From a virus, in the IMG/VR virus record IMGVR_UViG_3300045988_055134, positions 1,364 through 65,363 of that record: a stretch of 64,000 nt of DNA; one strand, given 5' to 3'. This document shows positions 1 through 64,000 of the stretch, piece by piece. The notes below the pieces were generated by a model. That model made no database searches. It was not told where the DNA came from and saw only the letters and a list, made by a program, of their open reading frames with translations. Position 1 is the stretch's first letter, and the number at the start of each line of letters is the position of its first letter. The position numbers and the translations under genes were made by a program.

Positions 1-91
1 TAAGTAGGGGATACTTGAGGAGTAGTTATAGGTGAAGCCCCACCTCCACCTTCCTCATTATAATAAAGACACTTACAGCAAACTTGCTTAA

Positions 92-167
92 AAGCAATTA
101 GCTCAGTTGGTTAGAGCATTAAAGTTTATTTTAATTATGGGTTGGTTCGATTCCAACATTCGCTTCA
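92..167 (+). tRNA. tRNA-like element with canonical D-arm (GCTCAGTTGGTTAGAGC) and T-arm (GGTTCGATTCC) but only 5/7 acceptor pairs and an apparent 6-nt anticodon loop; anticodon undetermined, possibly a pseudo-tRNA
   Basis: Manual cloverleaf folding; D and T arms are clear, anticodon arm TTAAA/GTTTAT/TTTAA. Confidence 0.35.
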
Positions 168-184
168 AAAGGGTGTCTTGATAT

Positions 185-260
185 GCTGGCGTAGCTCAGT
201 TGGTAGAGCGCTTCACTTGTAATGAAGATGTCGCAGGTTCGACTCCTGTCGCCAGCTCCA
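185..260 (+). tRNA. tRNA-Thr (anticodon UGU), CCA encoded
   Basis: Acceptor GCTGGCG/CGCCAGC, anticodon stem CTTCA/TGAAG, loop CTTGTAA, T-arm GCAGG-TTCGACT-CCTGT. Confidence 0.85.
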
Positions 261-263
261 TAT

Positions 264-340
264 GTCCCTTTAGCTTAGTTGGATAAAGCGTACGGCTACG
301 AACCGTAAGACCGGGAGTTCGAATCTCTCAAGGGATGCCA
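264..340 (+). tRNA. tRNA-Arg (anticodon ACG), CCA encoded
   Basis: Acceptor GTCCCTT/AAGGGAT, anticodon stem TACGG/CCGTA, loop CTACGAA. Confidence 0.85.
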
Positions 341-341
341 T

Positions 342-418
342 GTGGCTGTAGCTCAGGTGGTTAGAGCACTTGATTGTGGCTCAAGTTGTCGTGGATTCAA
401 ATTCCACCAGTCACCCCA
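342..418 (+). tRNA. tRNA-His (anticodon GUG), discriminator C73, CCA encoded; position -1 is T, not G
   Basis: Acceptor GTGGCTG/CAGTCAC, anticodon stem CTTGA/TCAAG, loop TTGTGGC. Confidence 0.8.
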
Positions 419-483
419 TGAGACCCAAACAGCGATTTTCAATCATATGTTTTTGGTACATACAAGATGAAAGGGGTCTAGAA

Positions 484-636
484 ATGAATAAGAAGACTTA
501 TAAGCAAGCTATGAAGAGGACTGGCGATGAACTACAAGAGTGGCTTCAGTTCAAGCGTCGAGGATCTTCTGTACAAGCTAAGAAGGGCAAGGGATCGTAT
601 TCCCGCAAACAAAAGCATAAAGATAAGGAGTGGTAA
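484..636 (+). CDS. small highly basic hypothetical protein (about 50 aa)
   Basis: ATG with AAAGGGG RBS; K/R-rich; lies between tRNA genes. Confidence 0.3.
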   Translation: MNKKTYKQAMKRTGDELQEWLQFKRRGSSVQAKKGKGSYSRKQKHKDKEW

Positions 637-638
637 TT

Positions 639-953
639 ATGGCTCGTTCATATCGGAAACAACCGGTTTGGAAGGATCATAACCGTGGCATGAAGAAGAT
701 TGCTAATCGTAAAGTGCGGCGGGCGCTTAATAGAAACATTAACCTCGACTTATCGAATTCTGCTTACAAGAAATATACTTGTCAGTGGGATATTTGTGAT
801 TATTGCTCTCTTGTTCCAAGTTCTTTTGAACAGTTCTATCATATCTCTGTTAATAGATGGAAAGAACGTAAAAGCTATTGGTTCTGGAAAGATGAACCAA
901 GTCCTACGAGAGAAGAAGCCTACAGAGATTGGCTTAAATATCGAATGAAATAA
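639..953 (+). CDS. hypothetical basic protein (104 aa)
   Basis: AAGGAG RBS 10 nt upstream of ATG; ORF ends TAA. Confidence 0.45.
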   Translation: MARSYRKQPVWKDHNRGMKKIANRKVRRALNRNINLDLSNSAYKKYTCQWDICDYCSLVPSSFEQFYHISVNRWKERKSYWFWKDEPSPTREEAYRDWLKYRMK

Positions 954-1030
954 GTGCTATTAGCTCAGTTGGACAGAGCATCGGTCTTCTAAACCGAGGG
1001 TCATTGGTTCGAGTCCAATATAGCATACCA
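954..1030 (+). tRNA. tRNA-Arg (anticodon UCU), CCA encoded
   Basis: Acceptor GTGCTAT/ATAGCAT, anticodon stem TCGGT/ACCGA, loop CTTCTAA. Confidence 0.85.
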
Positions 1031-1107
1031 TTAAGACTCTAACAGCAATTCTTTAGCTTATTGAGCATCTAACCGTTAATTAGACTATAATAGAGTCTTG
1101 ATAATAA

Positions 1108-1134
1108 GCAGAGATGGCCGAGCGGTGTTAAGCG
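1108..1134 (+). pseudogene. 5' fragment of a class II (Ser/Leu-like) tRNA (GCAGAGATGGCCGAGCGGT...) with no matching 3' half
   Basis: Resembles the acceptor plus D-arm of tRNA-Ser/Leu; downstream sequence runs into a CDS. Confidence 0.3.
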
Positions 1135-1153
1135 TAGTAACTATTGTTAAGAA

Positions 1154-1591
1154 GTGGTGATTTCTTTGTATGACGTACTGACAATCTCAGATTACATTCT
1201 TAGACGCTGTTCTGACGAAGGGCACACTGTTAGTAATCTGAAGCTACAGAAATTACTGTACTTTGTTCAGGCTGAATTCCTTGTTACAACTGGAAAACCA
1301 TGTTTCCGAGAAAAAATTGTCGCTTGGGATTTTGGACCAGTAATTCCTGAAGTATATCGCAAGTTTTGCATTTTTGGTTCTGCTCATATTCCGGTATCCG
1401 CAGTCGCGAATCCGATATTATCTAAGGGAACCAAAGAACTTATTGATGGTATTGTATTCACTTGCTTACCATTTAGTTCGTCACAGCTCGTTGAAATCAC
1501 TCAGCATCAGACTCCGTGGCTCAACGCTTATATTAAAGGCTATGGCAGCGAGATCACAAATGAGTCAATTCTCAATTTCTTCGCAGAATAA
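1154..1591 (+). CDS. Panacea-domain (DUF4065, SocA-like antitoxin domain) protein
   Basis: Motif LKLQKLLYFVQAEF...WDFGPVIPEVY typical of DUF4065; GTG start. Confidence 0.65.
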   Translation: MVISLYDVLTISDYILRRCSDEGHTVSNLKLQKLLYFVQAEFLVTTGKPCFREKIVAWDFGPVIPEVYRKFCIFGSAHIPVSAVANPILSKGTKELIDGIVFTCLPFSSSQLVEITQHQTPWLNAYIKGYGSEITNESILNFFAE

Positions 1592-1661
1592 TATGCTCAG
1601 TCGGTAGAGCGTTCGATTGATAATCGAAAGGTCGTAAGTTCAAGTCTTATCTGGACTACCA
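1586..1661 (+). tRNA. tRNA-Ile(GAU)-like element: good D, anticodon (TTCGA/TTGATAA/TCGAA) and T arms and encoded CCA, but the 5' acceptor strand does not pair; probably defective
   Basis: Manual folding; 3' acceptor CTGGACT has no complementary 5' strand. Confidence 0.4.
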
Positions 1662-1723
1662 TTTGGGAATATTTCTTTAATTTAATTATCTGCTTCTTTA
1701 TAAATACTGAGGAAGGTGATAAA

Positions 1724-2583
1724 ATGAAGATTTATAATCCAACTAACTATTCTTATATCACTGTTGTAGAAATCCCTAAGACAGAGATTTCAAAGTTTGA
1801 TATGGCATTATGTCAATAGCCACGTTAGACTTTGAAAGCCTATTATGATAGCTGTACTGTTAAGCCTTCTATTATTTCAAATGGTGGTTTCTTTAACATG
1901 AGTAATGGTTCAACTATTTTGAATTATTCTGATGAAGGAAAAATCATTAGCTCTAATTCTTCTTATAAAGAAGGGTTTGGAACTATAAATGGAGAGCTAA
2001 GATACGGTGTAATTGGTCAAGAGAAGTTTGAAGACTTCGTAAGTGGTTATCCAGTTTTGATTAAGGCTGGCGCCGCAGTTCCTATTACTATTGCTTCTGA
2101 GATTAACTATAAAGCTAGAAGAACTGTTTTAGCTTATAATAAAGAGAATATCTTTATTGTGGCTATTGAATCTCCAGGTATGAACTTCTCGCAAATGCAA
2201 TCTTTCTTGCAGACTCTCAAGGTTGATTATGCTATTAACCTTGATGGAGGCGGAAGTACCAAGGTATTACATGATGGTAAGTGTATCACAAAAGCACTTA
2301 CTAATCGTCCTGTTGATAATGTAATGGCTGTTTATTTAAAGCCAAAAGTTATTTATAGAGTATAGCTTGGTGCATTTAGCAAGAAAGCTAATGCAAACGC
2401 ATTTTTGGCTAAGATTAAAGTTCTTCCAGACACAATCAATGCAGGATATAAAAACGCTTATGTCCGCAAGGTTGGTAGTTATTGGAAGGTACAAGTTGGT
2501 GCGTTTTCTGTGAAGACTAACGCAGCAAGAGTAGTTCATGATCTAGCTAACAAGGGATATAATGCTTTTGTTACAACAATTTG
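1724..2583 (+). CDS. phosphodiester-glycosidase (DUF2233/NAGPA-like, NLDGGGST motif) plus C-terminal SPOR domain protein; three in-frame TAG codons (1817, 1826, 2363)
   Basis: GAGGAAGGTGA RBS before ATG 1724; the reading frame is continuous through the TAGs to a TGA at 2581; SPOR motif YRV-TAG-LGAFS. Confidence 0.75.
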
Positions 2584-2658
2584 ATTTTGTATAAATATTA
2601 TGATATAATATTTATACAAGATAAGGAAAGACACATATTACAATATGTGTCTTTATAA

Positions 2659-2730
2659 CGGGGTGTAAGTCAGTGGTAGACGGCGATATTTGGGGTATCG
2701 AGGTCGCAGGTTCGAATCCTGTCACTCCGA
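2659..2730 (+). tRNA. tRNA-Pro (anticodon UGG)
   Basis: Acceptor CGGGGTG/CACTCCG, anticodon stem CGATA/TATCG, loop TTTGGGG, T-arm GCAGG-TTCGAAT-CCTGT; CCA not encoded. Confidence 0.75.
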
Positions 2731-2813
2731 GTCTTTTGTGATATAAACCTCCACGCGGTAAAAGATGGGTAACGCTAATTATATCAAAGTAAAAAGAAAG
2801 GAGTCATTTAGTT

Positions 2814-3437
2814 ATGGCATACATCTATTAGATCACTAATGACATAAATGGTAAAATTTATGTCGGTAAAACTGAATTCTCTATCGAGAAACGCTTTAAG
2901 GAACATTGTCGAGATGCTTTCAAAGAGCGTAACGAAAAGCGTCCATTATATTCTGCTATGCGGAAATATGGAATTGAACATTTCCATATTGAGCTAATTG
3001 AAGAAACGGATGATCCAGAAGAGCGAGAAGTTTATTGGATTGAACAAAAACGTTCTTTCAAGAATGGATATAATGCAACCCTTGGCGGCGATGGAAAGAG
3101 ATATTGTGACTATGATTTAATATATTCTTTATATAAAGAAGGATTAAATATTAAAGAAGTTGCAAAAATTTTGAATTATTCTACGGACACTTGTTCAAAG
3201 GTGTTAAATCAATATGGTATTTCCAAAGAAGAGCGAAGTATTAAAAGTCGTTTAGGTATTATTAAGCCTGTTATACAGATAGATAAAAATACCAATCAAA
3301 TTTTGAATATTTTCCCTTCAATTAAAGCTGCTTATGATCGTTTGGGTAAACAACATTCAGGGCATATAGCTGCTGTATGCAATGGCAAACGAAAAACTGC
3401 TTATGGATACAAATGGAAATACGGTGAAACCTCGTAA
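2814..3437 (+). CDS. GIY-YIG homing endonuclease (Seg/I-TevI-like) with in-frame TAG at codon 6
   Basis: N-terminus MAYIY-TAG-ITNDINGKIYVGKT...R..H matches the GIY-YIG motif; C-terminal NUMOD-like DNA-binding region; AAAGGAG RBS. Confidence 0.8.
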
Positions 3438-3898
3438 CTTGCCAGAGCTTAGATAAGGTTATCCCTTATAGTTACGGCCACTTCCCCATTAAATGGGGTT
3501 ATGTATCACTCCTTTCCTATGTTATGGAAAAGACCCATACAGCAAATTCTTCTATTTACTTGAATACAAGAATGTTTATTGGTAAGTATATTACCTCCAG
3601 ACTATGATATATCTCTTTAAGACGGAAACAAGCGAGAGATATGGAGTCATTAGCTTGAGTTTCTGTGGGTCTTGATTTGAAAAAATAATAAACCTACACG
3701 GTTAAGCATAAATCATAAATCGTGTAGTAAAACGCTATATCAGCAAACTTTTGTGCTACTAATTTGAATAAATATAAAAGATATTTATGGTTTTAAGACC
3801 ACGATCTTAAAACTTAGTTCTTTTGGGTAGTGAACATATGGGGAACCGACAAAAGGACGAAAAGGAATTGGTTATGCCCGTTAGCGTCTTGTAAATAT

Positions 3899-3973
3899 TG
3901 GGGTGTCGCCAAGCGGCAAGGCAACGGACTTTGACTCCGGTATTCGTGAGTTCGAATCTCACCATCCCAGCCA
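3899..3973 (+). tRNA. tRNA-Gln (anticodon UUG), CCA encoded
   Basis: Close to E. coli tRNA-Gln (TGGGGT.TCGCCAAGCGG.AAGGCA); loop CTTTGAC. Confidence 0.8.
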
Positions 3974-3975
3974 TT

Positions 3976-4090
3976 TGGAAGTTAGTGTAAGAAATAACAC
4001 GCGCGTAAGATTTAGCCTAGCAATAGGTTGTAACAGCAGTTTTATCGTATGGGACGCGAGATATGGGTTCAAATCCTGTACTTCCAACCA
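3976..4090 (+). tRNA. tRNA-like gene (acceptor, D-arm, anticodon stem CGCGT/ACGCG, T-arm, CCA) with a 47-nt insertion in the anticodon-loop position that includes a GCCTA-GCAA-TAGGT GNRA hairpin
   Basis: Manual folding; class I spacing is exact except for the anticodon-loop insert; the insert contains CTA. Confidence 0.4.
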
Positions 4091-4112
4091 CATGAAAGAG
4101 AGGAGAATGTAT

Positions 4113-4544
4113 ATGTCACAATATCTTAACTTCTTTGTTCGTCACAATGAGGATTTTATTCCTCTCGCAAACTACTCTCGTAATACTCATGTTTATGATA
4201 TTGCAGAAGCCCCTTATGAAAAGATTAGGCGGTTTAGTCAAGAACAGCTTGAATCAATAGCAAGCAGATTGCGGGAGAGCAAGACTTCTGCTCATAAAGA
4301 GATTGCTCGTCTACAGCAAGAAATCGAGATTGTAAAAGGAATTATCATTACCGTGGATAATTTCGATGAATTGCTTTGCGCTATTCACAATATCACGAAC
4401 ATGATTTCTGAATATCAAGAGGATATTGAAGCTCTCGAGCGAGAAGCAATCGAGATTGAGTTTATGCGGAATATGACCTATGATGATTGCGAAATCTTCG
4501 CAGGCATTGAAATTAGTGATCCAACAATGGATGATATTTGTTAA
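4113..4544 (+). CDS. hypothetical protein (coiled-coil)
   Basis: AGGAGA RBS; ORF ends TAA. Confidence 0.55.
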   Translation: MSQYLNFFVRHNEDFIPLANYSRNTHVYDIAEAPYEKIRRFSQEQLESIASRLRESKTSAHKEIARLQQEIEIVKGIIITVDNFDELLCAIHNITNMISEYQEDIEALEREAIEIEFMRNMTYDDCEIFAGIEISDPTMDDIC

Positions 4545-4557
4545 GAGGAAGAAAGAT

Positions 4558-4743
4558 ATGTATATTTGTCCAACTTGTCATAAGGCTTTCAGTTCAGAGA
4601 GCTACATCAAAAAGCATTTCTTAGATTGTTGGAAGGAGCAACACCCATTCCATCAATCAACTCCAGCACCTCGTTCAGAGGATATTGTAGAAGTTCAAGC
4701 AGATGATGATGTATTGGCTTTCTTTGCGAGGTTAAAAGCATGA
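4558..4743 (+). CDS. small C2H2/zinc-finger-like protein
   Basis: GAGGAAG RBS; CPTCHKAFSS...H motif. Confidence 0.5.
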   Translation: MYICPTCHKAFSSESYIKKHFLDCWKEQHPFHQSTPAPRSEDIVEVQADDDVLAFFARLKA

Positions 4744-5093
4744 CAGAAGATGTTATGATTAAGACCCATCTGATTGTTACAGATGTTCACGAAGAATATT
4801 CAATTAGATGGTGCGGACGGATCATTGATACGAAGCCTTTATTAGTAAACAATAAACCTATTTTTGTAATCATTGGTAGAAACAAGCGTGTTGAGGTCAA
4901 TACTATTGATATGAAGCACGTCGAAGAGTGCGCGAAGCGTGTAACAAATCCACGAGGCCGTGCCGCAATCACAAGCGATCAGGCTTCTATTTACATTAAA
5001 GAAGTAGATGACAAAGAAACTTGTATTGGAGTTATTACTCATCGTCATGTGAAAAGTTATGCTCCAATGTATGATGCAGTAGGTTATGAATAA
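4740..5093 (+). CDS. hypothetical protein
   Basis: ATGA overlap with the upstream gene; 117 aa. Confidence 0.5.
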   Translation: MTEDVMIKTHLIVTDVHEEYSIRWCGRIIDTKPLLVNNKPIFVIIGRNKRVEVNTIDMKHVEECAKRVTNPRGRAAITSDQASIYIKEVDDKETCIGVITHRHVKSYAPMYDAVGYE

Positions 5094-5101
5094 GAAAGTA
5101 T

Positions 5102-5187
5102 GCCGCCATGGTGGAACTGGTAGACACAGGGGACTTAAAATCCCCCGGTGTAGAACCGTGCGGGTTCGAGTCCCGCTGGCGGCACCA
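5102..5187 (+). tRNA. tRNA-Leu (anticodon UAA), class II, CCA encoded
   Basis: Acceptor GCCGCCA/TGGCGGC, anticodon stem GGGGA/TCCCC, loop CTTAAAA, long variable arm. Confidence 0.85.
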
Positions 5188-5191
5188 ATTT

Positions 5192-5265
5192 ACCGGTTTA
5201 GTATAATGGTAGTACAGAGGACTCTGACTCTTCTGACGGTAGTTCGACTCTACCAACCGGTGCCA
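5192..5265 (+). tRNA. tRNA-Gln (anticodon CUG), CCA encoded
   Basis: Acceptor ACCGGTT/AACCGGT, anticodon stem GAGGA/TCTTC, loop CTCTGAC. Confidence 0.8.
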
Positions 5266-5311
5266 TTTTCTCCTTCTTTACGGACTCCTGGCGGCTTTAA
5301 TGCCGTCATAT

Positions 5312-5388
5312 GGTTCTTTAGCTGAGTTGGTTACAGCCTTCCGCTCATAACGGAAAGATCCAGAGTTCGAGCCTCTGAAGAACCACCA
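5312..5388 (+). tRNA. tRNA-Met/Ile2 (anticodon CAU), elongator type, CCA encoded
   Basis: Acceptor GGTTCTT/AAGAACC, anticodon stem TTCCG/CGGAA, loop CTCATAA. Confidence 0.8.
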
Positions 5389-5391
5389 TAC

Positions 5392-5465
5392 GCGGGGTTA
5401 GGCTATAGGTAGACCATCAGCGTTAAAAGGCTGAAAAAGCGGTTCGAATCCGCAACCCCGCACCA
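5392..5465 (+). tRNA. atypical class I tRNA with an apparent 8-nt anticodon loop GTTAAAAG (UAA or UUA anticodon) and a 3-nt variable loop; CCA encoded
   Basis: Acceptor GCGGGGT/ACCCCGC is perfect; T-arm GCGG-TTCGAAT-CCGC; only the stem TCAGC/GCTGA fits. Confidence 0.5.
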
Positions 5466-5489
5466 TATACATTTGAAAGGAAGTAAAGT

Positions 5490-6602
5490 ATGAATATTGT
5501 AAATGCAGGTTCTCGCTATCAGGTGTATGGCGAAGATGTTCAGACATACAAAGAGTTGCCTACTGCAACTTACACAGTCGGTTTCCATCCGCAGATGGGT
5601 TTTTGGCTTACCAAGCATGATGACCTTGTAATCAATGAGGGCACGATTTATGGCGATCATGCTCGCAAGGCAGATAAAATCCTTAAATCGTTTCAGATTA
5701 GCGCAAGAAACTTCGGTGTTATTCTTTCTGGTAAGAAGGGTATCGGTAAGTCTTTGCTCGCTCGAATGATTGCTAACAAATCTATTGAAAATGATATGCC
5801 TGTTATTATTGTTGATGCGGCTGTGCCCGGTATCAGCAATTTTCTTAGCTCTATTCAGCAAGAGGTAACAATCATTTTCGACGAGTTCGAAAAGACTTTC
5901 CACAAGACAGATGATGGTGATCCGCAGATAGAAATGCTTAGTCTATTTGACGGCATTGATAATGGCAAGAAATTATTCGTTATCACCTGTAACGACCCGC
6001 GTGACCTCAATGAGTTTCTTGTTAATAGACCTGGTCGTTTCCATTATCATTTCGAGATTACTTGCCCTGCACCTGAGGAAATTCGTGCTTACATGACTGA
6101 TAAGCTCGGCACTGGCTGGGACGACGAGATTGATAAGATTATTAAGCTGTCTCAGATGTCGAATATCACCTTCGACTGTTTGCGGGCTATTGCTTTTGAT
6201 CTTAAGCAGGGATACCCTCTCGAGGAAACTCTCATGGATCTAAATATCAACTACGAGCGTGATGTCGCTTATGATATTACCATTAGACTTTCTAATGGTT
6301 GGACTAATACCAAGTATAGTTACAGAGTTAACCTGTATTCTGCGGGATGGGTATATTGTGAATTTTACAATAAAGAGTTCTGCTACCACGTTAAATTCGA
6401 TGTGAAGAGTGTCGTTGCTGAGAATGGCGTGCTTTGTGTTGATCCCGATAAGGTCACACTATCGTTGCCGTGGGATGCTTTTGATGAGCTGCCAGACAAC
6501 GATGCAGAGATTGCTAAGAAACAGTGGCTCAATTCCACCTCCATTCTTTCTCTCACACTCACTAAGGTAAACGACTTGATGATTAACAAGTTTGGTGTGT
6601 AA
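5490..6602 (+). CDS. AAA+ ATPase (Walker A GKKGIGKS, sensor NRPGRFH)
   Basis: Motif content; GGAAG RBS. Confidence 0.75.
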   Translation: MNIVNAGSRYQVYGEDVQTYKELPTATYTVGFHPQMGFWLTKHDDLVINEGTIYGDHARKADKILKSFQISARNFGVILSGKKGIGKSLLARMIANKSIENDMPVIIVDAAVPGISNFLSSIQQEVTIIFDEFEKTFHKTDDGDPQIEMLSLFDGIDNGKKLFVITCNDPRDLNEFLVNRPGRFHYHFEITCPAPEEIRAYMTDKLGTGWDDEIDKIIKLSQMSNITFDCLRAIAFDLKQGYPLEETLMDLNINYERDVAYDITIRLSNGWTNTKYSYRVNLYSAGWVYCEFYNKEFCYHVKFDVKSVVAENGVLCVDPDKVTLSLPWDAFDELPDNDAEIAKKQWLNSTSILSLTLTKVNDLMINKFGV

Positions 6603-6612
6603 GTAAATATAA

Positions 6613-6647
6613 ACCCTGTCATTATTATATAATGACAGGGTTTTTTG
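6613..6647 (+). terminator. rho-independent terminator (CCCTGTCATTA...TAATGACAGGG then a T-run)
   Basis: Perfect inverted repeat followed by TTTTTT. Confidence 0.7.
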
Positions 6648-6776
6648 TTGCATATATGTGGGCATTGGACCGCGCTCGGTGCAAACGCAAAGTAGTTTTA
6701 GAATTTTTCGGGCCAAATATGGGAAAATGACTTGCTACAATTTTTATATCTATGTGAGAGGAGGGATTTATAAGAA

Positions 6777-6989
6777 TGGCTGATTTAGTAGTTCTTAAAG
6801 GTTCTTTTGCCAATCTCGATAGCATCCCGATTAAAGAGGGCTAGTTGATTTTCACGACAGATGAGGGTAATCGTCTGATTTTCTTGGATACTGATAACAG
6901 TACTCGAGTATAGATCACTTCTCCCGCGATTGAGGATACTGATACAATCATTTTGGACGCCGGCGGCGCTCCTATAACAATAGGAGGTT
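6777..6989 (+). CDS. small protein with two in-frame TAG codons; its N-terminal motif is shared with the neighbouring fibre-like genes
   Basis: GAGGAGGG RBS; ATG 6777; ends TAA 6987. Confidence 0.5.
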
Positions 6990-6996
6990 AAGGCAT

Positions 6997-7509: not shown

Positions 7510-7532
7510 TCTTATAGGAAGAAATTAATTTT

Positions 7533-8741: not shown

Positions 8742-8794
8742 TTTAGCACTAGCGAGTTAAATGCTCATTTATGAAAATAAAGGATGGTGAGTAA

Positions 8795-9265: not shown

Positions 9266-9295
9266 AGCCATTAGGCTTTATCCTATTTTTTTATT
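9259..9295 (+). terminator. rho-independent terminator
   Basis: GGATAAAGCC/GGCTTTATCC followed by a T-run. Confidence 0.7.
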
Positions 9296-9377
9296 TTTCT
9301 CAAAAATTATTGTATTATATGTATATAAACAAAAGGAAATATGATAAGGATCGACACTAAGCTAGCTTAGATGATCT

Positions 9378-9406: not shown

Positions 9407-9439
9407 ATATATAGTAAATGAGAAAAGGAGTTACAAGTT

Positions 9440-11437: not shown

Positions 11438-11440
11438 TAA

Positions 11441-58430: not shown

Positions 58431-60659
58431 GTGTTTCTATTGCTACAAGTAAAGAAAAGAAATGGTATCCTTGTACCATTTGATAAGCAAAGAATTGTAA
58501 ACGCTATCAACAAGGCTTTTATCGAGGTTGATGGCATTCTGTATGAAGAAGATACGGCGAAAGATATTGCCGATGAAATTAAATATAGCGTAAAGACTGC
58601 GGATGATATTATCTCAGTTGAAGAAATTCAAGATATGATTGAGAATTTCTTAATGCGCTCTGAAAGAAAAGATGTTGCCAAGGCTTATATCAGATATAGA
58701 TATAAGAGAGAAATGGTGCGCTCTAGTAATGATGACTTTATTCAAGCGTTCTCTGAAAAAGTTAGCGGCTCTTCTATTGAACGACAAAACGCTAATGTTG
58801 ATGAGCTATCGTTTGGAGGTCGTGTTGGCGCAAGTTCAGACCTTTAGATGAAGAAATATGCGCTTGATTATTGCGTATCTGATATGGCTCGCAATAATCA
58901 CCGCAATAATGAAATTTATATCCATGATTTATCCGCTTATGCAGTTGGTATGCACAACTGTCTATCTATTCCTTTTGATCACTTGCTTGCCGATGGGTTT
59001 AACACTAGACAAACTGATGTAAGACCCGCAGGTTCAGTGAATACTGCATTTCAGTTGGTAGCAGTGATTTTCCAACTTGAATCTCTCCAGCAGTTTGGTG
59101 GCGTAAGTGCAACACACCTCGACTGGACGATGGTTCCTTATGTAAGAAAAAGTTTTAGAAAGTACTATATTGAAGGCTTAAAATATATTGAGAATATCTC
59201 CGATAAAGAGCTTTTTGACCATATTCCAGATAATGCTGGAATTGAAGATGATGAATATATGATTTATGATAAAGCATATCAATATGCTCTTGATATGACT
59301 ATTAAAGAAGTACATCAAGCTGTAGAAGGTATGTATCATAATCTTAATACTCTTCAGTCTCGCTCTGGTAATCAACTACCATTCACATCTATTAACTATG
59401 GTACTTGCACTTTGCCCGAAGGTAGAATGGTAATTAAAGCATTACTTGATGTCTCTATTGAGGGACTTGGTAAACTGCATAAAACTTCTATCTTCCCATG
59501 CGGTATCTTCCAATGTATGAAGGGCGTCAATCAAAAGCCAGATGATCCGAACTATGATTTGTTTAGACTGGCTCTAAGATCCACTGCAACTAGACTCTAT
59601 CCTAACTATGCTAACGTTGATTGGTCTGGCAATGCAGGATATGACCCGAATGATCCCAAGACCTATTTTAGCACGATGGGTTGCCGCACCGCGAATGGTT
59701 GGGACGTCAATGGCATGGGTCAAACAAAAGATGGTAGAGGTAATATCTGCCCTGTAACCATCATCATGCCTACTCTTGCTATGGAAGCAAAAGAAGCAGC
59801 AGATGCCGCATATCCTGACGCAAACGCCATTGATTGTTTTATGTCTCTACTTGACCAGAAAATTCATGAAGCTAAGGATATGCTGCTAGAACGATTTGAT
59901 TATATTTGCTCTCAGCCTGCTGAATCCGCGAAGTTCATGTATGAAAATGGCGTAATGGCTGGCTATGATGGCAAGACAACCCGTAGTGCATTAAAGCATG
60001 GTACTCTTGCTGTTGGTCAATTAGGCCTTGCAGAAACGCTACAAATTCTTATTGGTCAGGATCATACTACTTCGCAGGGTATGGAACTAGCTAAGAAGAT
60101 TGAGCAGCTCTTCCAAGATAGATGTGCAGCTTTCAAACAACAGTATCAGTTAAACTTTGGCGTTTATTATACACCTGCGGAGAACCTCTGTTACACTGCT
60201 ATGACGAAGTTTAAGGACAAGTATGGAGAAATTCCAAACGTAAGTGATAGAGATTATTTCACTAACTCTATTCATGTTCCGGTATGGAAGAAGATGTCAC
60301 CTTTTAAGAAGATTGATATTGAAAGCCAGCTGACCGGTTATTCTTCTGCTGGCTGCATTACTTACGTTGAACTTGATAGTGGCGTTAAGAATAACATTGA
60401 CGCTCTGGAAACTTTGGTACTTTATGCTATGGAACATGATATTCCGTATTTCGCAATTAACGTTCCTAACGACACTTGTCTTGAGTGTGGTTACATGGAC
60501 GAATTTAATGATCACTGCCCAGTTTGCGGAAGTCACCATATTCAACAGCTTCGACGTGTTACAGGCTATCTAACCGGTAATTATACAACTGCCTTTAATG
60601 CAGGTAAAGTTGCCGAAGCCAATGATAGAGTAAAACATTCAGGTCGATTGGAGGAATAA
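58431..60659 (+). CDS. nrdD: anaerobic ribonucleoside-triphosphate reductase with N-terminal ATP-cone; in-frame TAG at 58845 at the cone/catalytic junction
   Basis: ATP-cone VKKRNGILVPFD; glycyl-radical RVTGYL; C-terminal CxxC..CPVC. Confidence 0.8.
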
Positions 60660-60662
60660 CTC

Positions 60663-61157
60663 ATGCAGTACGCAGGAATTATTTATGATGACTTTTCAGC
60701 CGCGCCAGGCGTGTGCCTATCTTTCTTTGTCCAAGGTTGTCCTTTCCGTTGTGAAGGATGTCACAATCCAGAAACATGGGATTTTAGTGGAGGTAGAGAG
60801 TTCACTCAAGGAACTCTCGACTCCATTATTAAAGGACTGCGCGCTAATGGTGTGCATAGAAATCTTTGTATTATGGGCGGAGAACCTCTTTGTCCAGAGA
60901 ACTCTTTCCTTACTAGGTTGGTCGTAACAACAGTAAAGAAGGAATTACCGGATACTAAGATCTATATTTGGACAGGTAATACCTATGAAAATCTCGCAAT
61001 CTTCTCAGACTTAAATATGCGAGAAATCTTTAATAACGCGGATTTCTTGATTGATGGCCCCTATATTCAAGCTGAACGCGATTTAACTCTACCTATGCGC
61101 GGCAGCCGCAATCAACGTATTATTGATTTGCACGAGGTATGCCATGAAGAAGCGTGA
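60663..61157 (+). CDS. nrdG: anaerobic RNR activating protein (radical SAM)
   Basis: CPFRCEGCHN. Confidence 0.8.
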   Translation: MQYAGIIYDDFSAAPGVCLSFFVQGCPFRCEGCHNPETWDFSGGREFTQGTLDSIIKGLRANGVHRNLCIMGGEPLCPENSFLTRLVVTTVKKELPDTKIYIWTGNTYENLAIFSDLNMREIFNNADFLIDGPYIQAERDLTLPMRGSRNQRIIDLHEVCHEEA

Positions 61158-61182
61158 GTAGATCAAAAGAGAAGTTACCTTA

Positions 61183-61779
61183 ATGAATGATAAGATTTAG
61201 GCTGGAGTAGAATCCAGCCTAAATCAAATTGTTCAGCAGGTTATTACGTATAGTAATAAACCGGAACAATCAAAAACTTTATTAGATAAAACGCAACAGT
61301 TGTTCTATGACTCCCTTACTCAAACTTATAGCACGACTTCGGGTGATTTAAAACGGATTTATTCTAGAACAAAGGATTTTGAAGTCAAGGATATTTTATC
61401 TTTAACATATAATAAAGATAATAAAACCTTGAATGAAAGAATTGCAGAACACTGGAATAAAGCATCAGAGTATTCTAATAAAACAGCGATGCAAGCATAT
61501 TTAATTGATAAATATGATAGACTACTAAGAAACGAAACACAGATTGTTAAAAATGCCGTTATGTTTAATAAAGTAGGTACACTTAGTCAACTTGCTATTG
61601 TTGAAAATAGCGGCGGAGATTGTGATGGTGGTTGCGCTGAATATGCAGGTGAGTGGCCAGTAGATGAGGTAATCCTCCCTCCGTATCATCCTAATTGTTG
61701 TTGCCAAGTGTACTATGATGATACAGATAACGAGGATGACATAGAAGATTTGGAGCTAGAAAATGAAGATATTGTCTAA
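61183..61779 (+). CDS. hypothetical protein with in-frame TAG at codon 6; Cys cluster and acidic tail
   Basis: ATG 61183 is in frame with ORF 61300-61779. Confidence 0.45.
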
Positions 61780-62317
61780 CTCAATTCTTGGAGGAGTAAT
61801 GATAGCAATAGCAAGCTATATTTACCTACAAATAGGTGGTATCGCTGGCGCTTTCTTATTCTCCATTGGATTATTAAGTATATTAAATATGGATTTTAAG
61901 TTATACACTGGCGCGATAGGATTTTATCACTCTTCATTACAAGACATGAAGATGCTAACGACCATACTTATCGGCAACTGCATAGGCACATCTTTGCTTT
62001 TGATGTTTCCTAACGCGGAAGCCCAGGTTTTAGTTGCCACCAAACTAGCTTTATTACCGGGCATAGTGTTTATTAAAGCAGTGGTTTGCGGGATGTTTAT
62101 GTATATAGCAGTAGCCTGTTTCCGCAATTCGGCTTACTATATGGTTCCAGTATGTGTAGCAGGATTTATCCTATTTGGTGGAGAACACTGTATCGCTGAT
62201 CTATGTTACTTTATAGCATCTAATTCATTTGATTATAGGATGTTTCCTTTCTTTATTACCACTCTCATAGGCAACTCTACGGGAGCAATTTTAATTGACA
62301 AAATTAAAGTTTTATGA
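61763..62317 (+). CDS. polytopic membrane protein (about 6 TM), transporter-like
   Basis: Hydrophobicity pattern. Confidence 0.55.
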   Translation: MKILSNSILGGVMIAIASYIYLQIGGIAGAFLFSIGLLSILNMDFKLYTGAIGFYHSSLQDMKMLTTILIGNCIGTSLLLMFPNAEAQVLVATKLALLPGIVFIKAVVCGMFMYIAVACFRNSAYYMVPVCVAGFILFGGEHCIADLCYFIASNSFDYRMFPFFITTLIGNSTGAILIDKIKVL

Positions 62318-62347
62318 TATTATAATAATAGAAAAGGAGATTTGTAT

Positions 62348-62692
62348 ATGACTTTATATGAAATCAACTAGGCTGCTTATAGCAACCTTTCTAAGATGAC
62401 TAAGGCCGACGTGCAGAAGGCAGCTGAGAAGCTAGAAGAGTTTCTTACAAAGCACGACGCAAAATATTATCTCATGCTTAATGTAGAAGGTAGATATTAT
62501 ACTATGTACACCTATAATCAAGAGCATGATGTTAAAAAGATGGCTTACGAGATGATTGATGTAGCAAAGACTCTCGGCGTCCTCAAAGGCATTCAGATCG
62601 AAAAGGATATGGTAGAGTTCTGGATTCAAAATGGCAAGACCTGTGAAATGTATGCTATGTTCGACTATACAAAAGGAGTGATTGAAGTATGA
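62348..62692 (+). CDS. hypothetical protein with in-frame TAG at codon 8
   Basis: Strong AAAGGAG RBS before ATG 62348; in frame with ORF 62396. Confidence 0.5.
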
Positions 62693-62949
62693 ATCAGACA
62701 ATGGTAATTCTATATGATCCATTTGCCGTAGACTCTACAATTTATGTATTTCAAGATGGACATATTATCAATCAAGCGTCTATCCCATCTGATGCTTCAA
62801 CGCTCGCTGCTAATATCGCGGCGTATGCAGATGCAACTAATATTTTTTCTGTAAAGATTGAGGCTTCACCTTCTTTAGTAGAAGAAATTAAACAACAGCT
62901 AAATACAACTAATTATACAAAGCAAAAAATTGAAGTGGAAGGTATTTAA
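62689..62949 (+). CDS. hypothetical protein
   Basis: ATGA coupling. Confidence 0.45.
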   Translation: MNQTMVILYDPFAVDSTIYVFQDGHIINQASIPSDASTLAANIAAYADATNIFSVKIEASPSLVEEIKQQLNTTNYTKQKIEVEGI

Positions 62950-63200
62950 TGATGTATACTTTGAAAACAACTACTGTATATCGCGTGCCCACGGTTGAAG
63001 ATGCTCTTCGTCTGCGGGAATGGCTTGATAAGAATTGCACTGGCGAGCTAACCGGCTTTAAGTATACCACCAAGTATATCAAGGCTAAGGGTGAAATTAT
63101 TGAAGAATATCAGCTCGTTACTGCTACTATTACTATCGACAATGAGAAAGAACCAGAAGGCATTATGCCGATTATGATGGAGGATGTAAATAATGGTTAA
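62949..63200 (+). CDS. hypothetical protein
   Basis: TAATG coupling. Confidence 0.45.
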   Translation: MMYTLKTTTVYRVPTVEDALRLREWLDKNCTGELTGFKYTTKYIKAKGEIIEEYQLVTATITIDNEKEPEGIMPIMMEDVNNG

Positions 63201-63756
63201 GTTTCAGAAGGTATCTCGTTTTGCTGACATTGATCTCCCTCTGCCGACTCGAGCAACCGCAGATTCCGCAGGTTATGATTTTGTAGTCGCAGAGGATATT
63301 GTAATTCCTCCATATGACTTCCTGAGAACTAAGATTCAGGACGACTTGTTCGAGAAGGAACGTCACGAAGACTTCTATGGTTTTATCGACCCTCTTACTC
63401 TTGATGATATGGCAAGTATTACTAAGGCCCTCAAGGCAAAGATCCCGCTTGTATCTACTGGTATGAAATGTCATCTGGAGCCAGGTCAGTATCTTGAACT
63501 AAGTGTCCGCAGTTCTACTCCCCTTAAACACTGGTTGATTATGGGTAATAGCGTTGGTATTATTGATGCTGATTATTGTGATAATCCGGATAATGAGGGC
63601 GAGATTTTCTTCCAGCTTATCAACCTTTCTCCTTTTGCTATTCAGCTTAAGCGCGGTGATAAGATTGGACAGGGTATTATTAAGACTTACGGTGTAACCG
63701 ATGATGACTCTGCGACTGGCGAGCGTTTGGGTGGTTTCGGTTCTACAAGCAAGTAA
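63193..63756 (+). CDS. dut: dUTP pyrophosphatase
   Basis: AGYDF, IIDADY, GERLGGFGSTS motifs. Confidence 0.75.
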   Translation: MVKFQKVSRFADIDLPLPTRATADSAGYDFVVAEDIVIPPYDFLRTKIQDDLFEKERHEDFYGFIDPLTLDDMASITKALKAKIPLVSTGMKCHLEPGQYLELSVRSSTPLKHWLIMGNSVGIIDADYCDNPDNEGEIFFQLINLSPFAIQLKRGDKIGQGIIKTYGVTDDDSATGERLGGFGSTSK

Positions 63757-64000
63757 TGAGTCGCCTTTTAGCTTTAGATTAGGCTTCGAAGGTTACTGGT
63801 TGGGCAATCTTTGAAGATGGTAAGTTAGAAAAGTATGGTAAGATTTCCTTAGACGATCCTAATATCGACACTAGACTAGTTTAGTTACGATAGAATATCT
63901 GGGCTTTAATTGAAAGCGAAAATATCAACGAAGTAGTATTTGAAGATATTCAACAATAGAATAATGTCGCTAATAACGTCTAGACCTTTAAGATTTTAGC
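63757..64000 (+). CDS. RuvC-like Holliday-junction resolvase, 5' partial, with at least 5 in-frame TAG codons in 80 codons
   Basis: LLALD-TAG-ASKVTGWAIFEDGKL resembles the RuvC N-terminus. Confidence 0.5.

What the first reader, a model, noticed from the sequence alone, without database searches (positions are those of the whole stretch)
1..64000. TAG is never used as a stop: code-15-like recoding
All 81 ORFs called in this window that terminate inside it end with TAA (about 80%) or TGA; none ends with TAG. Every ORF in the six-frame track that stops at TAG continues in frame into sequence that is clearly the same protein. The cases are the NAGPA to SPOR protein (2363), the endolysin amidase to wall-binding tail (35581), the two RecJ DHH halves (51691), the NrdD ATP-cone to catalytic domain (58845), the wHTH protein (45024), the GIY-YIG endonuclease N-terminus (2829), the fibre gene (7015) and the RuvC-like gene. 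In at least 7 genes the best RBS-linked ATG lies upstream of an early TAG. This is the signature of amber recoding, most likely to Gln, as reported for some crAss-like and other gut phages.
Basis: seen in the sequence. Interest (0 to 1): 0.85.

Follow-up and report, generated by a model that had tools for sequence, protein, structure and literature searches.

The report
Amber-to-glutamine recoded gut phage
This window is part of a roughly 145 kb gut phage that reads the stop codon TAG as glutamine, a known kind of recoding, but its suppressor tRNA carries an extra arm that looks like a glutamine anticodon loop, which may be new.

Summary
I mapped 83 public gene calls for the same contig onto the window. 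They end in TAA (65) or TGA (18) and never in TAG. 31 TAG codons lie in frame in 15 of these genes, and 5 more lie in the gene cut by the window end.

Homology runs through the TAGs in NrdD, RecJ, the endolysin, NAGPA-SPOR, two GIY-YIG genes and a phrog_6721 protein. One 303-codon gene holds 12 TAGs.

Across 58 related phage loci, 197 alignment columns contain TAG. Gln is the majority residue in 75 of them (background 3.4%) and in 39 of the 45 strictly conserved ones. So TAG means Gln.

The decoder is a 91-nt tRNA(CUA) that lies 1.5 kb upstream of the window, not inside it.

This is a new member of a known kind (code 15 phages). Its nearest described relative is phAss-1, and public pipelines already call this contig with TAG read through.

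One thing was unexpected. The suppressor's long variable arm is a hairpin whose 7-nt loop reads U-CUG-A, a Gln anticodon loop. The same design recurs in most long-arm CUA tRNAs of phage contigs. Long-arm UCA suppressors carry the Trp counterpart, U-CCA-A. I found no description of this in the literature I could search.

The parts
1724..2584 (+). NAGPA-SPOR cell-wall protein (286 aa) with in-frame TAG at 1817, 1826 and 2363
   Evidence: Pfam finds NAGPA at residues 50-204 and SPOR at 211-284. The SPOR alignment to B. subtilis CwlC (1X60) starts before the TAG and pairs IYRVxLGAF with LYKVQIGAF, so TAG aligns with Gln. The called ATG has a Shine-Dalgarno motif, AGGTGA.
2814..3437 (+). GIY-YIG/NUMOD1 homing endonuclease (207 aa) with TAG at 2829 (codon 6)
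   Evidence: The Pfam GIY-YIG match covers residues 1-87 and model positions 1-78 of 78, so it spans the TAG. The next ATG, at 2958, would remove the catalytic motif and has no Shine-Dalgarno motif.
6776..6991 (+). Hypothetical 71-aa gene with TAG at 6842 and 6911
   Evidence: Public call. The TAGs are conserved in 5 loci. There is no homology evidence, so this is a weak case.
6997..7509 (+).
   Evidence: A 7-nt Shine-Dalgarno motif (AGGAGGT) lies 8 nt before the upstream ATG, and none lies before ATG 7030. No family hit.
18180..18437 (-). Hypothetical 85-aa gene on the minus strand with TAG at 18354
   Evidence: Public call. The TAG is conserved in 5 loci.
19838..20188 (+). Hypothetical 116-aa gene with TAG at 19841 (codon 2). 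The start is uncertain.
   Evidence: Neither ATG 19838 nor ATG 19844 has a Shine-Dalgarno motif, so this TAG may lie outside the gene.
35062..35805 (+). Endolysin with Amidase_2 and a C-terminal SLH-like wall-binding tail (247 aa), TAG at 35581 (codon 174)
   Evidence: Pfam finds Amidase_2 at 19-151 and SLH at 196-235. A full-length alignment (residues 1-241, 50% identity) to the single 238-aa CDS of cultured Agathobaculum phage AB434P3 crosses the TAG.
42902..43813 (+). Coiled-coil plus GIY-YIG endonuclease gene (303 codons) with 12 in-frame TAGs
   Evidence: TAGs at 43004, 43061, 43082, 43085, 43256, 43259, 43304, 43328, 43355, 43421, 43568 and 43730. Pfam GIY-YIG covers residues 211-292, and PHROG homing-endonuclease families reach 4e-21. 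All 12 TAGs are conserved in 10 loci. No standard-code ORF of 80 aa or more exists in 42853-44286.
43813..44118 (+). Small P-loop protein (101 aa) with TAG at 43876 (codon 22)
   Evidence: The Shine-Dalgarno motif AGGAGG lies before the upstream ATG. A relative has TAG where the window has CAG at 43936.
44118..44756 (+). phrog_6721 protein (212 aa) with TAG at 44217 (codon 34)
   Evidence: The PHROG match covers residues 2-210 and profile positions 9-217 of 218, E = 3.5e-55, and spans the TAG.
44829..45209 (+). Winged-helix protein (126 aa) with TAG at 45024 (codon 66)
   Evidence: Pfam HTH_27 at residues 53-111 spans the TAG. 6 of 10 near-identical genomes have TGG here, and more distant homologs have W, L or V.
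50689..52437 (+). RecJ-like exonuclease (582 aa) with TAG at 50740 and 51691
   Evidence: DHH, DHHA1 and RecJ_OB lie in one frame, and the next ATG after 51691 falls inside DHHA1. Homologs have Q in 19 of 20 sequences at codon 18 and 23 of 34 at codon 335. Two relatives have CAG at 51691.
58440..60659 (+). Anaerobic ribonucleotide reductase NrdD with N-terminal ATP-cone, TAG at 58845. The start at TTG 58440 is inferred from the Shine-Dalgarno motif AAGGGGTG.
   Evidence: The Pfam NRDD domain starts 19 residues before the TAG, and the ATP-cone covers residues 6-94. The alignment to PDB 8P23 (743 aa) is continuous, residues 5-344. Homologs have Q in 20 of 33 sequences, and one relative has CAG. 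Sequence read.
61144..61779 (+). Hypothetical 211-aa protein with TAG at 61159 and 61198
   Evidence: The Shine-Dalgarno motif GAGGT lies before the upstream ATG. TAG 61198 is present in all 12 distinct homologs. At 61159 the other 7 have Leu.
62348..62692 (+). Hypothetical 114-aa protein with TAG at 62369 (codon 8)
   Evidence: The Shine-Dalgarno motif AAGGAG lies before the upstream ATG. All 10 homologs without TAG have Q at this position.
63756..64000 (+). 5' part of a 159-codon gene that runs out of the window, with in-frame TAG at 63780, 63882, 63891, 63957 and 63981
   Evidence: This is where the TAG-rich part of the genome begins.
93..11504 (+). tRNA gene array. ARAGORN finds 14 genes and Rfam adds 2. 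None has a CUA anticodon. The tRNA(CUA) lies in the same array 1.5 kb upstream of window base 1 (L001:2945-3035).

Best explanation
The window is the TAG-poor replication, nucleotide-metabolism, tRNA and lysis part of a roughly 145 kb gut phage with an SPbeta/EF1-like replication module. The host is probably a Clostridia or Oscillospiraceae bacterium. In this phage UAG is translated as glutamine, and only UAA and UGA terminate, which is NCBI genetic code 15.

Shown:
- TAG lies inside conserved genes and domains.
- TAG aligns with Gln across the phage clade.
- The phage encodes a tRNA with anticodon CUA, in the tRNA array 1.5 kb upstream of the window.

Inferred:
- The tRNA is charged with Gln by the host's Gln-charging machinery and outcompetes release factor 1 at UAG. 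No synthetase or release-factor gene is visible in the 83 kb I examined.
- TAG is rare in this region (1.7 per 1000 codons) and about 6-7 times denser in the next 10 kb. In the window it sits mostly in the first 35 codons. It therefore probably also acts as a gate, so that full-length product needs enough suppressor tRNA. This is the timing model that Borges et al. proposed for other phages.
For: Stops and in-frame TAGs. Stops are 65 TAA, 18 TGA and 0 TAG. There are 31 in-frame TAGs in 15 of 83 genes.

Continuity across TAG:
- Pfam domains span the TAG in NrdD, two GIY-YIG genes and the wHTH protein.
- The PDB NrdD alignment is continuous across the TAG.
- phrog_6721 matches full length.
- The SPOR motif VxLGAF aligns with VQIGAF of CwlC.
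- The endolysin aligns end to end with a single CDS of a cultured Agathobaculum phage.

Amino acid identity:
- 197 TAG-containing alignment columns come from 58 IMG/VR relatives plus the close relatives.
- Q is the majority residue in 75 of them, against a 3.4% background.
- Q is the conserved residue in 39 of the 45 columns that are at least 90% conserved.
- The BLOSUM log-likelihood puts Q 87 nats above the next residue.
- The window's own sites 50740, 51691, 58845 and 62369 are Q-majority.
- TAG and CAG swap at 5 sites among near-identical genomes.

Decoder. The tRNA(CUA) is at L001:2945-3035 on the same contig. Rfam scores it as a tRNA at 53.6 bits with anticodon loop CUCUAAA. It is conserved in relatives.

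Ribosome-binding sites lie upstream of early TAGs in 9 of 11 genes.

TAG density and position. The 5' bias is 13 of 19 TAGs in the first 35 codons, p = 3e-7.

Precedent. Code 15 phages are described in Borges et al. (10.1101/2021.08.26.457843), Peters et al. (PMC9523058, proteomic proof of TAG = Gln) and Babkin et al. (PMC10607447).
Against: - There is no protein-level evidence for this phage.
- At a few window sites the homologs do not have Gln: 45024 has W, L or V; 61159 has L; 2829 has K or Y; and 35581 aligns with E in a linker.
- TAG and TGG swap at two sites.
- The suppressor tRNA has a 20-nt variable region and G73, features that would normally suggest Ser identity.
- The public calls assumed read-through, so a rare genuine TAG terminator cannot be excluded. 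One candidate is the uncalled holin-like ORF with TAGTAGTAG at 36086-36094.
- About 60 kb of the genome was not examined for RF2 or synthetase genes.
Confidence: 0.93

Rival explanations
1. The standard code applies. The TAGs are real stops, and the affected genes are naturally split (for example a separate ATP-cone and NrdD), truncated or pseudogenes.
For: TAG 58845 is followed immediately by ATG. Most long genes in the window have no TAG at all. No CUA tRNA lies inside the window.
Against: - Domains span the TAGs.
- The next start after TAG 51691 falls inside the DHHA1 domain.
- A 303-codon frame holds 12 TAGs and no TAA or TGA.
- The TAGs are conserved in many independent assemblies.
- TAG aligns with conserved Gln.
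- A CUA tRNA is present 1.5 kb upstream.
- Shine-Dalgarno motifs sit before the upstream starts only.
Confidence: 0.01
2. TAG is a sense codon for an amino acid other than Gln. Candidates are Ser (long variable arm plus G73 recruiting SerRS), Trp (TAG and TGG swaps), Glu (non-discriminating GluRS without amidation) or pyrrolysine (the label ARAGORN gives any CUA tRNA).
For: - The tRNA is 91 nt, with a 20-nt variable region and G73.
- TAG and TGG swap at 45024 and 41951.
- Many Firmicutes lack GlnRS (general knowledge, not tested here).
Against: - The column statistics favour Q by 87 nats over R and E and by 124 nats over S.
- S is the majority residue in only 8 of 197 columns, and W in 2.
- The D-arm and the U1/G73 end resemble the phage's own tRNA-Gln and not its tRNA-Ser, which has a 3-bp D-stem and G1.
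- The tRNA lacks the short variable loop that defines tRNA-Pyl.
- No pyl genes appear in the Pfam listings.
Confidence: 0.04
3. TAG has a dual meaning. It is mainly a conditional stop that times expression and is only partly suppressed, so it is not a fully reassigned codon. This refines the best explanation and does not exclude it.
For: - TAG makes up only 4.9% of Gln-type codons in the window (31 of 634).
- 13 of 19 TAGs lie in the first 35 codons.
- Density rises about 6-7 fold in the next 10 kb.
- The large replication genes (pol III alpha, gyrase A and B, DnaB) have none.
- This is the model of Borges et al. (10.1101/2021.08.26.457843).
Against: - TAG also occurs in the replication and nucleotide-metabolism genes RecJ and NrdD.
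- The 5' bias is weak across the wider clade (p = 0.06).
- No expression data exist, and suppression efficiency is unknown.
Confidence: 0.4

Closest known systems
Genetic code 15 (TAG to Gln) gut phages: crAss-like, Lak and the 'gemstone' clades (Borges et al. 10.1101/2021.08.26.457843; Peters et al. PMC9523058)
   Same: In-frame TAG aligns with Gln. The phage encodes a tRNA(CUA). TAA and TGA remain stops. TAG is sparse in some replication genes and dense in other modules. The host presumably uses the standard code.
   Different: This is a different phage lineage, with an SPbeta/EF1-like replication module. No RF2 or synthetase was seen in the 83 kb examined. In this window the TAGs show a strong 5' position bias. 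The suppressor tRNA carries an extra arm.
Phassvirus group: phAss-1 OQ749652 (Babkin et al. PMC10607447), placed by NCBI in the 'Caudoviricetes code 15 clade'
   Same: The genome is about 136-145 kb with about 30-36 tRNAs and TAG to Gln recoding. Shared genes include pol III alpha, NrdD/NrdG, NAMPT, PRPP synthetase, gyrase, ligase and RecJ. phAss-1 also has a long Sup-CTA tRNA (88 nt) with the same anticodon arm and T-arm and a variable-arm loop CUCUGAA.
   Different: Protein identity is only 24-49%, and megablast finds no nucleotide match. phAss-1 also has a normal-length Sup-CTA next to the long one. None was seen here in the tRNA array.
SPbeta-like Bacillus phages and Enterococcus phage EF1/VRE9 (standard code)
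   Same: They are the best GenBank phage matches to the pol III alpha, at 39% identity over its full length. YorF- and YorH-like proteins are shared. Genome size is similar.
   Different: Those phages are not reported as recoded (PMC10607447 states this for EF1). The relationship is distant.
Classical amber suppressor tRNA-Gln (E. coli supE) and the GlnRS identity rules
   Same: The anticodon is CUA with U35 retained. The discriminator is G73. The 1:72 pair is weak or unpaired (U1.C72 here), and G2:C71 and G10 are present (read; the rules come from general knowledge).
   Different: The 3:70 pair is C:G and not G:C, and position 38 is A. There is a 17-20 nt insertion in the variable region that no known tRNA-Gln has.
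Engineered tRNAs with a 'pseudo-anticodon' variable arm (Mukai, PMC7590224)
   Same: A hairpin in the variable arm that copies a cognate anticodon stem-loop was shown to help recruit a synthetase carrying a matching anticodon-binding domain.
   Different: That system is synthetic and uses HisRS fused to an extra binding domain. Here the design occurs naturally in phage stop-codon suppressors, and its function is untested.

Membership tests
Code 15 (amber to Gln) recoded phage | In-frame TAG inside conserved genes, with homology continuing downstream | tested here: met
   31 TAGs lie in 15 of 83 genes.
Code 15 (amber to Gln) recoded phage | TAG positions align with Gln in homologs | tested here: met
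   Q is the majority residue in 75 of 197 columns (background 3.4%) and in 39 of 45 conserved columns. The likelihood favours Q by 87 nats.
Code 15 (amber to Gln) recoded phage | TAG is not used as a terminator, and TAA and TGA still terminate | tested here: met
   Stops are 65 TAA, 18 TGA and 0 TAG. No TAG lies within 25 codons of a called end. Caveat: the calls assumed read-through, and one uncalled ORF (35786-36130) is ambiguous.
Code 15 (amber to Gln) recoded phage | Phage-encoded suppressor tRNA with anticodon CUA | tested here: met
   L001:2945-3035, on the same contig 1.5 kb upstream of the window. It is not in the window itself.
Code 15 (amber to Gln) recoded phage | Gln found at TAG positions in peptides | not testable with these tools
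   This needs proteomics, as done for crAss-like phages in PMC9523058.
Code 15 (amber to Gln) recoded phage | Accessory factors present in some members (RF2, GlnRS) | tested here: inconclusive
   None appears among the Pfam labels of called genes in the 83 kb examined. About 60 kb of the genome was not seen. This is not a required feature.
Phassvirus genus (phAss-1) | Nucleotide identity around 80% or more and shared synteny with phAss-1 | tested here: not met
   Megablast finds no match, and protein identity is 24-49%. This phage is a distant relative, not a member of the genus.
Pyrrolysine decoding of UAG | tRNA-Pyl architecture (3-nt variable loop, small D-loop) and pylS/pylBCD genes | tested here: not met
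   The tRNA has a standard D-arm and a 20-nt variable region. No pyl genes appear in the listings. The alignments point to Gln.
tRNA-Ser-type (class II) amber suppressor | Long variable arm with a Ser-type D-arm, and TAG aligned with Ser | tested here: not met
   The D-arm has 4 bp and resembles tRNA-Gln(CUG). S is the majority residue in only 8 of 197 columns. The variable-arm loop is conserved as a Gln anticodon loop.
tRNA-Gln identity set (E. coli GlnRS rules, from general knowledge) | Weak 1:72 pair, G73, G2:C71, G3:C70, G10, U35, G36, A37, U38 | tested here: inconclusive
   Present: U1.C72, G73, G2:C71, G10, U35 and A37. Absent: G3:C70 (C:G here), G36 (A36; a G36 equivalent occurs only in the variable-arm loop) and U38 (A38). 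Read. The host enzyme is unknown.

The most novel reading that the evidence does not exclude
The phage's amber suppressor is a tRNA with two anticodon-like arms. The canonical arm (5 bp, loop CUCUAAA) reads UAG. The 'variable arm' is a short hairpin whose 7-nt loop copies a tRNA-Gln anticodon loop. In this phage the loop is UUCUGCA, and the family consensus is CUCUGAA.

I propose that this pseudo-anticodon arm is an identity element. It would let the Gln-charging machinery (GlnRS, or non-discriminating GluRS plus GatCAB) accept a tRNA whose real anticodon has lost G36.

Support for the pattern:
- Among 53 distinct long-arm CUA tRNAs from IMG/VR phage contigs, 37 carry CUG or UUG at loop positions 34-36 under a strict hairpin rule, and 47 do with stems of 2 bp or more.
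- In those 47 loops U33 is kept in 44, U35 and G36 in all 47, and A37 in 43, while the stems covary.
- Among 53 long-arm UCA (opal) suppressors, 29 instead carry N-U-CCA-A-A, a Trp anticodon loop, on 4-7 bp stems.
- The cross-classification is 37/1 against 2/29, Fisher p = 6e-16.
- Ser, Leu and Tyr variable arms in the same loci show the Gln motif in 2 of 110 and the Trp motif in 0 of 110.
- All 43 ordinary tRNA-Gln and tRNA-Trp genes in the same loci are 72-77 nt and lack the arm.

Six literature searches found only an engineered analogue (PMC7590224). That library lacks many subscription-journal papers, so prior description cannot be excluded.

The pattern itself is solid. The function is inferred. 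The stated probability refers to the arm being a functional determinant of aminoacylation identity.
Probability: 0.5. Interest if true: 0.88.

Novelty: new member of a known kind. Interest (0 to 1): 0.5.

Why it matters
Recoding itself. This matters practically. With the standard table, 15 of 83 genes in this window are truncated or split, including the endolysin, RecJ and NrdD, and one gene disappears altogether. The TAG-rich remainder of the genome would fragment far more. Public pipelines already handle this contig correctly, so the finding adds a lineage and not a principle.

The suppressor tRNA. This is where the finding could matter more. An open question is how a phage gets a stop-codon-reading tRNA charged with the right amino acid when the relevant synthetases (GlnRS, TrpRS) depend heavily on the anticodon. 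A second arm that displays the cognate anticodon, found in parallel for Gln with UAG and Trp with UGA, would be a natural solution. It is directly testable by loop mutations and charging assays, and it would offer a design rule for engineering orthogonal suppressor tRNAs.

Tried and rejected
- Megablast of 25 kb against GenBank phages found no match, so no close deposited relative exists.
- An exact tRNA-Thr pattern found nothing in IMG/VR.
- A search for a CUA anticodon stem-loop inside the window found no tRNA-like site.
- Ser, Leu or Tyr identity for the suppressor, suggested by its 91-nt length and G73, was rejected by the alignment statistics.
- Pyrrolysine, which is ARAGORN's label for any CUA tRNA, was rejected on tRNA architecture and on the alignments.
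- PHROG and Pfam gave nothing for the holin-like ORF or for the genes at 6997, 61144, 62348, 43813 and 19838.
- In the fetched loci, homologs of the 12-TAG protein align only over its GIY-YIG domain, with K at TAG 43568 and E, N or Q at 43730. This does not help identify the amino acid.
- NrdD's TAG aligns with T or V in solved structures. This shows the protein continues across the TAG but says nothing about the residue.
- The 5' position bias of TAG did not generalise to the wider clade.
- GTDB genome contigs yielded only phage-sized contigs binned into Oscillospiraceae, Eubacterium, Clostridiales and Bacilli MAGs. There was no integrated prophage, so the host remains a hint only.
- I did not use the three large protein-database searches or structure prediction, because the answer did not depend on them.

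Full report
**What the window is.** The sequence is 39.5% G+C, and all but two genes lie on the + strand. It is 100% identical to ENA metagenome contig ERZ27261476 k99_36653, which is 144.5 kb. The window wraps across the ends of that record, which suggests a circular or circularly permuted genome. Dozens of near-identical contigs of 142-148 kb exist in other samples. Gene content includes:
- a tRNA array;
- NAD salvage genes, Thg1 and an RNA ligase;
- an endolysin;
- gyrase, ligase, DnaB, RecJ and a Pif1-like helicase;
- pol III alpha and NrdD/NrdG;
- SPbeta YorF- and YorH-like proteins.

The best GenBank phage matches to the polymerase are Enterococcus EF1/VRE9 and Bacillus SPbeta phages, at 39% identity.

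**Observation check.** I mapped the 83 public gene calls for this contig onto the window. They end in TAA (65) or TGA (18) and never in TAG. 31 TAG codons are in frame in 15 genes, and 5 more lie in the gene cut by the window end. These calls clearly treated TAG as sense. They give, for example, a 286-aa NAGPA-SPOR protein, a 247-aa amidase-SLH protein, a 582-aa RecJ and a 303-aa GIY-YIG protein. The absence of TAG stops therefore needed independent support. Cutting the same genes at TAG lowers coding density only from 87.2% to 83.9%, because TAG is rare in this region.

**Read-through, gene by gene.**
- NrdD. The Pfam NRDD domain begins 19 residues before TAG 58845, and an ATP-cone precedes it. 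The alignment to the 743-aa NrdD of PDB 8P23 runs without a break from residue 5 to 344. This matters because the TAG is followed directly by ATG.
- RecJ. DHH, DHHA1 and the OB domain lie in one frame, and the next ATG after TAG 51691 falls inside DHHA1.
- GIY-YIG at 2814. The catalytic domain match starts at residue 1, and the TAG is codon 6.
- NAGPA-SPOR. The SPOR alignment to CwlC starts before the TAG and pairs VxLGAF with VQIGAF. The same protein's second SPOR repeat reads VQVGAF with an ordinary Gln codon.
- Endolysin. It aligns over residues 1-241 (50% identity) with the single 238-aa CDS of cultured Agathobaculum phage AB434P3.
- 44118-44756. It matches phrog_6721 end to end across codon 34.
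- 42902-43813. This is the strongest case. It has 303 codons and 12 TAGs with no TAA or TGA, and a GIY-YIG domain containing two of the TAGs. All 12 TAGs are conserved in 10 assemblies. The region has no standard-code ORF of 80 aa or more.
- Early TAGs. In 9 of the 11 genes with a TAG in the first 40 codons, a 5-7 nt Shine-Dalgarno match precedes the upstream ATG, and none precedes the first start after the TAG.

**Which amino acid.** Among near-identical genomes, TAG alternates with CAG at 5 sites, with TGG at 2 and with CGG at 1. I then fetched 58 IMG/VR loci that encode relatives of the polymerase at 53-99% identity. I translated them with TAG as X, built 43 family alignments and collected 197 columns that contain TAG.
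- Gln is the majority residue in 75 of these columns, against 3.4% of all columns.
- Of the 45 columns that are at least 90% conserved, 39 are Gln.
- A BLOSUM62 likelihood puts Gln 87 nats above Arg and Glu and 124 above Ser.

For the window's own sites, homologs give Q in 19 of 20 sequences at 50740, 23 of 34 at 51691, 20 of 33 at 58845 and 10 of 10 at 62369. Sites 45024 (W, L, V), 61159 (L) and 2829 (K, Y) are not Gln positions. TAG therefore means Gln. The few non-Gln sites are best read as tolerated substitutions.

**The decoder.** No tRNA in the window has a CUA anticodon. The array continues upstream. At L001:2945-3035, about 1.5 kb before window base 1 on the same contig, lies a 91-nt tRNA. 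Rfam's tRNA model scores it at 53.6 bits and shows:
- anticodon loop CUCUAAA;
- a U1.C72 mismatch and G73;
- a 17-nt insertion in the variable region.

Its D-arm resembles the phage's own tRNA-Gln(CUG). It is identical in one relative and differs by two T-loop bases in another.

**An unexpected feature of that tRNA.** The insertion folds as UUCC-UUCUGCA-GGAG, a short hairpin whose 7-nt loop reads U33-CUG-C37, in the format of a tRNA-Gln anticodon loop. phAss-1 has a homologous 88-nt Sup-CTA with loop CUCUGAA and a compensated stem.

A pattern scan of IMG/VR for this anticodon arm followed by a long variable region found 84 contigs, mostly 50-600 kb. Among the distinct long-arm CUA tRNAs (53-54, depending on the parsing rule), 47 have a 7-nt-loop hairpin with CUG or UUG at loop positions 34-36. 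In those 47:
- U33 is kept in 44, U35 and G36 in all 47, and A37 in 43;
- the commonest loop is CUCUGAA, in 26, which differs from the real anticodon loop CUCUAAA only at position 36;
- the stems covary (for example C-G 23, G-C 17 and U-A 5 at the second pair), and one has a 5-bp stem.

The matching scan for UCA suppressors found 77 stretches. 29 of 53 distinct long-arm UCA tRNAs carry N-U-CCA-A-A, a Trp anticodon loop, on 4-7 bp stems. Under one fixed rule the cross-table is 37 Gln-like and 1 Trp-like for CUA, against 2 and 29 for UCA, with Fisher p = 6e-16. Ser, Leu and Tyr variable arms in the same loci show 2 of 110 and 0 of 110. All 43 ordinary tRNA-Gln and tRNA-Trp genes there are 72-77 nt.

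Normal-length CUA tRNAs with the same anticodon arm are commoner, at 120 or more contigs, and they occur in 79%-identity relatives of this phage. The arm is therefore an option and not a requirement.

My inference is that the arm acts as a pseudo-anticodon that preserves Gln or Trp identity after the real anticodon has changed. How a short side arm could reach a synthetase's anticodon-binding domain is unresolved. One possibility is an alternative fold in which the two hairpins swap roles. The first hairpin sits at the canonical distance from the D-arm, and the second sits 4-8 nt (mostly 6-8) before the T-arm.

**TAG distribution.** TAG accounts for 31 of 634 Gln-type codons in the window (4.9%). 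In the 12-TAG gene it accounts for 12 of 27. Pol III alpha (1296 aa), gyrase A and B, DnaB and ligase have none. Outside the 12-TAG gene, 13 of 19 TAGs lie in the first 35 codons, against 15% expected (p = 3e-7). Only 13% of CAA and CAG codons lie there. This bias is weak across the wider clade (p = 0.06). In the 10 kb after the window, density is about 11 per 1000 codons against 1.7 in the window. This fits the published idea that recoded stops delay expression of some genes until the suppressor is available. I cannot test that idea here.

**Comparison with what is known.** TAG to Gln recoding in gut phages is established by:
- Borges et al., 10.1101/2021.08.26.457843;
- Peters et al., PMC9523058, who provided proteomic proof in crAss-like phages.

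NCBI taxonomy already has a 'Caudoviricetes code 15 clade'. The nearest described group is Phassvirus (PMC10607447). It shares genome size, tRNA load, many genes and the long Sup-CTA tRNA, but only 24-49% protein identity. This is therefore a new member of a known kind.

For the pseudo-anticodon arm, six full-text searches found only an engineered analogue (PMC7590224). A 2025 screen of 213 phage suppressor tRNAs (PMC12636597) does not mention it. The searched library omits much of the subscription literature, so I cannot claim priority.

**Not settled.**
- No protein-level data exist.
- About 60 kb of the genome was not examined for RF2 or a synthetase.
- The host is only hinted at. Relatives are binned into Oscillospiraceae, Eubacterium and Clostridiales MAGs, the endolysin's nearest homolog comes from an Agathobaculum phage, and the endolysin has an SLH-like tail.
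- The uncalled holin-like ORF 35786-36130, with TAGTAGTAG, might end at TAG or read through to TAA TAA just before a strong terminator.

Noticed in passing
L001:2945-3035 (about 1.5 kb upstream of window base 1); also L083:12445-12532 and loci L089-L249: The phage's tRNA(CUA) has a variable-arm hairpin whose 7-nt loop mimics a tRNA-Gln anticodon loop (U-CUG-A). Most long-arm CUA tRNAs in phage contigs share this. Long-arm UCA suppressors carry a Trp-type loop (U-CCA-A) instead.
   Followed up: yes
window 5392-5465: A tRNA-like gene has a perfect acceptor stem and an encoded CCA, but its anticodon loop has 8 nt (GUUAAAAG). ARAGORN reports anticodon 'taaa', and Rfam scores it at 37.9 bits. It is absent from relative L004. 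It could be a frameshift-type tRNA or an odd Leu(UAA) tRNA.
   Followed up: partly
window 93-166 and 1585-1658: Two tRNA-like genes look degenerate. The first has a 6- or 8-nt anticodon loop, a mismatched acceptor stem and no CCA. The second is tRNA-Ile(GAU)-like with a broken acceptor stem, whereas relative L004 has an intact tRNA-Ile in the same place.
   Followed up: partly
window 35786-36130, terminator at 36135-36176: An uncalled ORF directly after the endolysin looks like a holin, to judge by its two hydrophobic stretches. It has 5 in-frame TAGs, including TAGTAGTAG at 36086-36094. It ends in TAA TAA, followed by a terminator with a 14-bp stem. It has no Shine-Dalgarno motif and no family hit, so it is unclear whether it ends at TAG or reads through.
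   Followed up: partly
window, 14 TAG-containing genes other than 42902-43813: 13 of 19 in-frame TAGs lie within the first 35 codons, against 15% expected (p = 3e-7). Ordinary Gln codons show no such bias. The bias is weak in the wider clade.
   Followed up: yes
window 42902-43813: A coiled-coil plus GIY-YIG gene uses TAG for 12 of its 27 Gln-type codons, against 4.9% for the window as a whole. It may be a mobile gene acquired from a phage that uses TAG more heavily, or a gene under tight gating.
   Followed up: partly
window 45024 and 41951: TAG and TGG alternate among near-identical genomes in the wHTH gene and in DNA ligase. That implies Gln and Trp exchange at these sites, and more distant homologs have W, L or V at the first site.
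   Followed up: partly
L006:10564-19883 (the 10 kb after the window end): TAG density rises to about 11 per 1000 codons, and a minus-strand module appears (Peptidase_M78, resolvase domain, DUF4376). The 143-aa resolvase-domain gene itself has 4 TAGs, unlike the TAG-free integrases reported for some recoded prophages.
   Followed up: partly
L007:1-4642: In one relative the pol III alpha gene is split into 837-aa and 482-aa parts by an inserted 275-aa GIY-YIG gene.
   Followed up: no
window 58431-58653: The public NrdD call (668 aa, ATG at 58653) omits the ATP-cone. Pfam and the PDB alignment support a start near TTG 58440, which lies 6 nt after the Shine-Dalgarno motif AAGGGGTG.
   Followed up: partly
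window 20192-29282: The auxiliary gene set is unusual: an RNA ligase, Thg1 (tRNA-His guanylyltransferase), NAMPT, NAD synthase, a PRPP-synthetase-like gene and an isochorismatase. Together with about 30 tRNAs, this suggests heavy investment in tRNA repair and NAD salvage.
   Followed up: no
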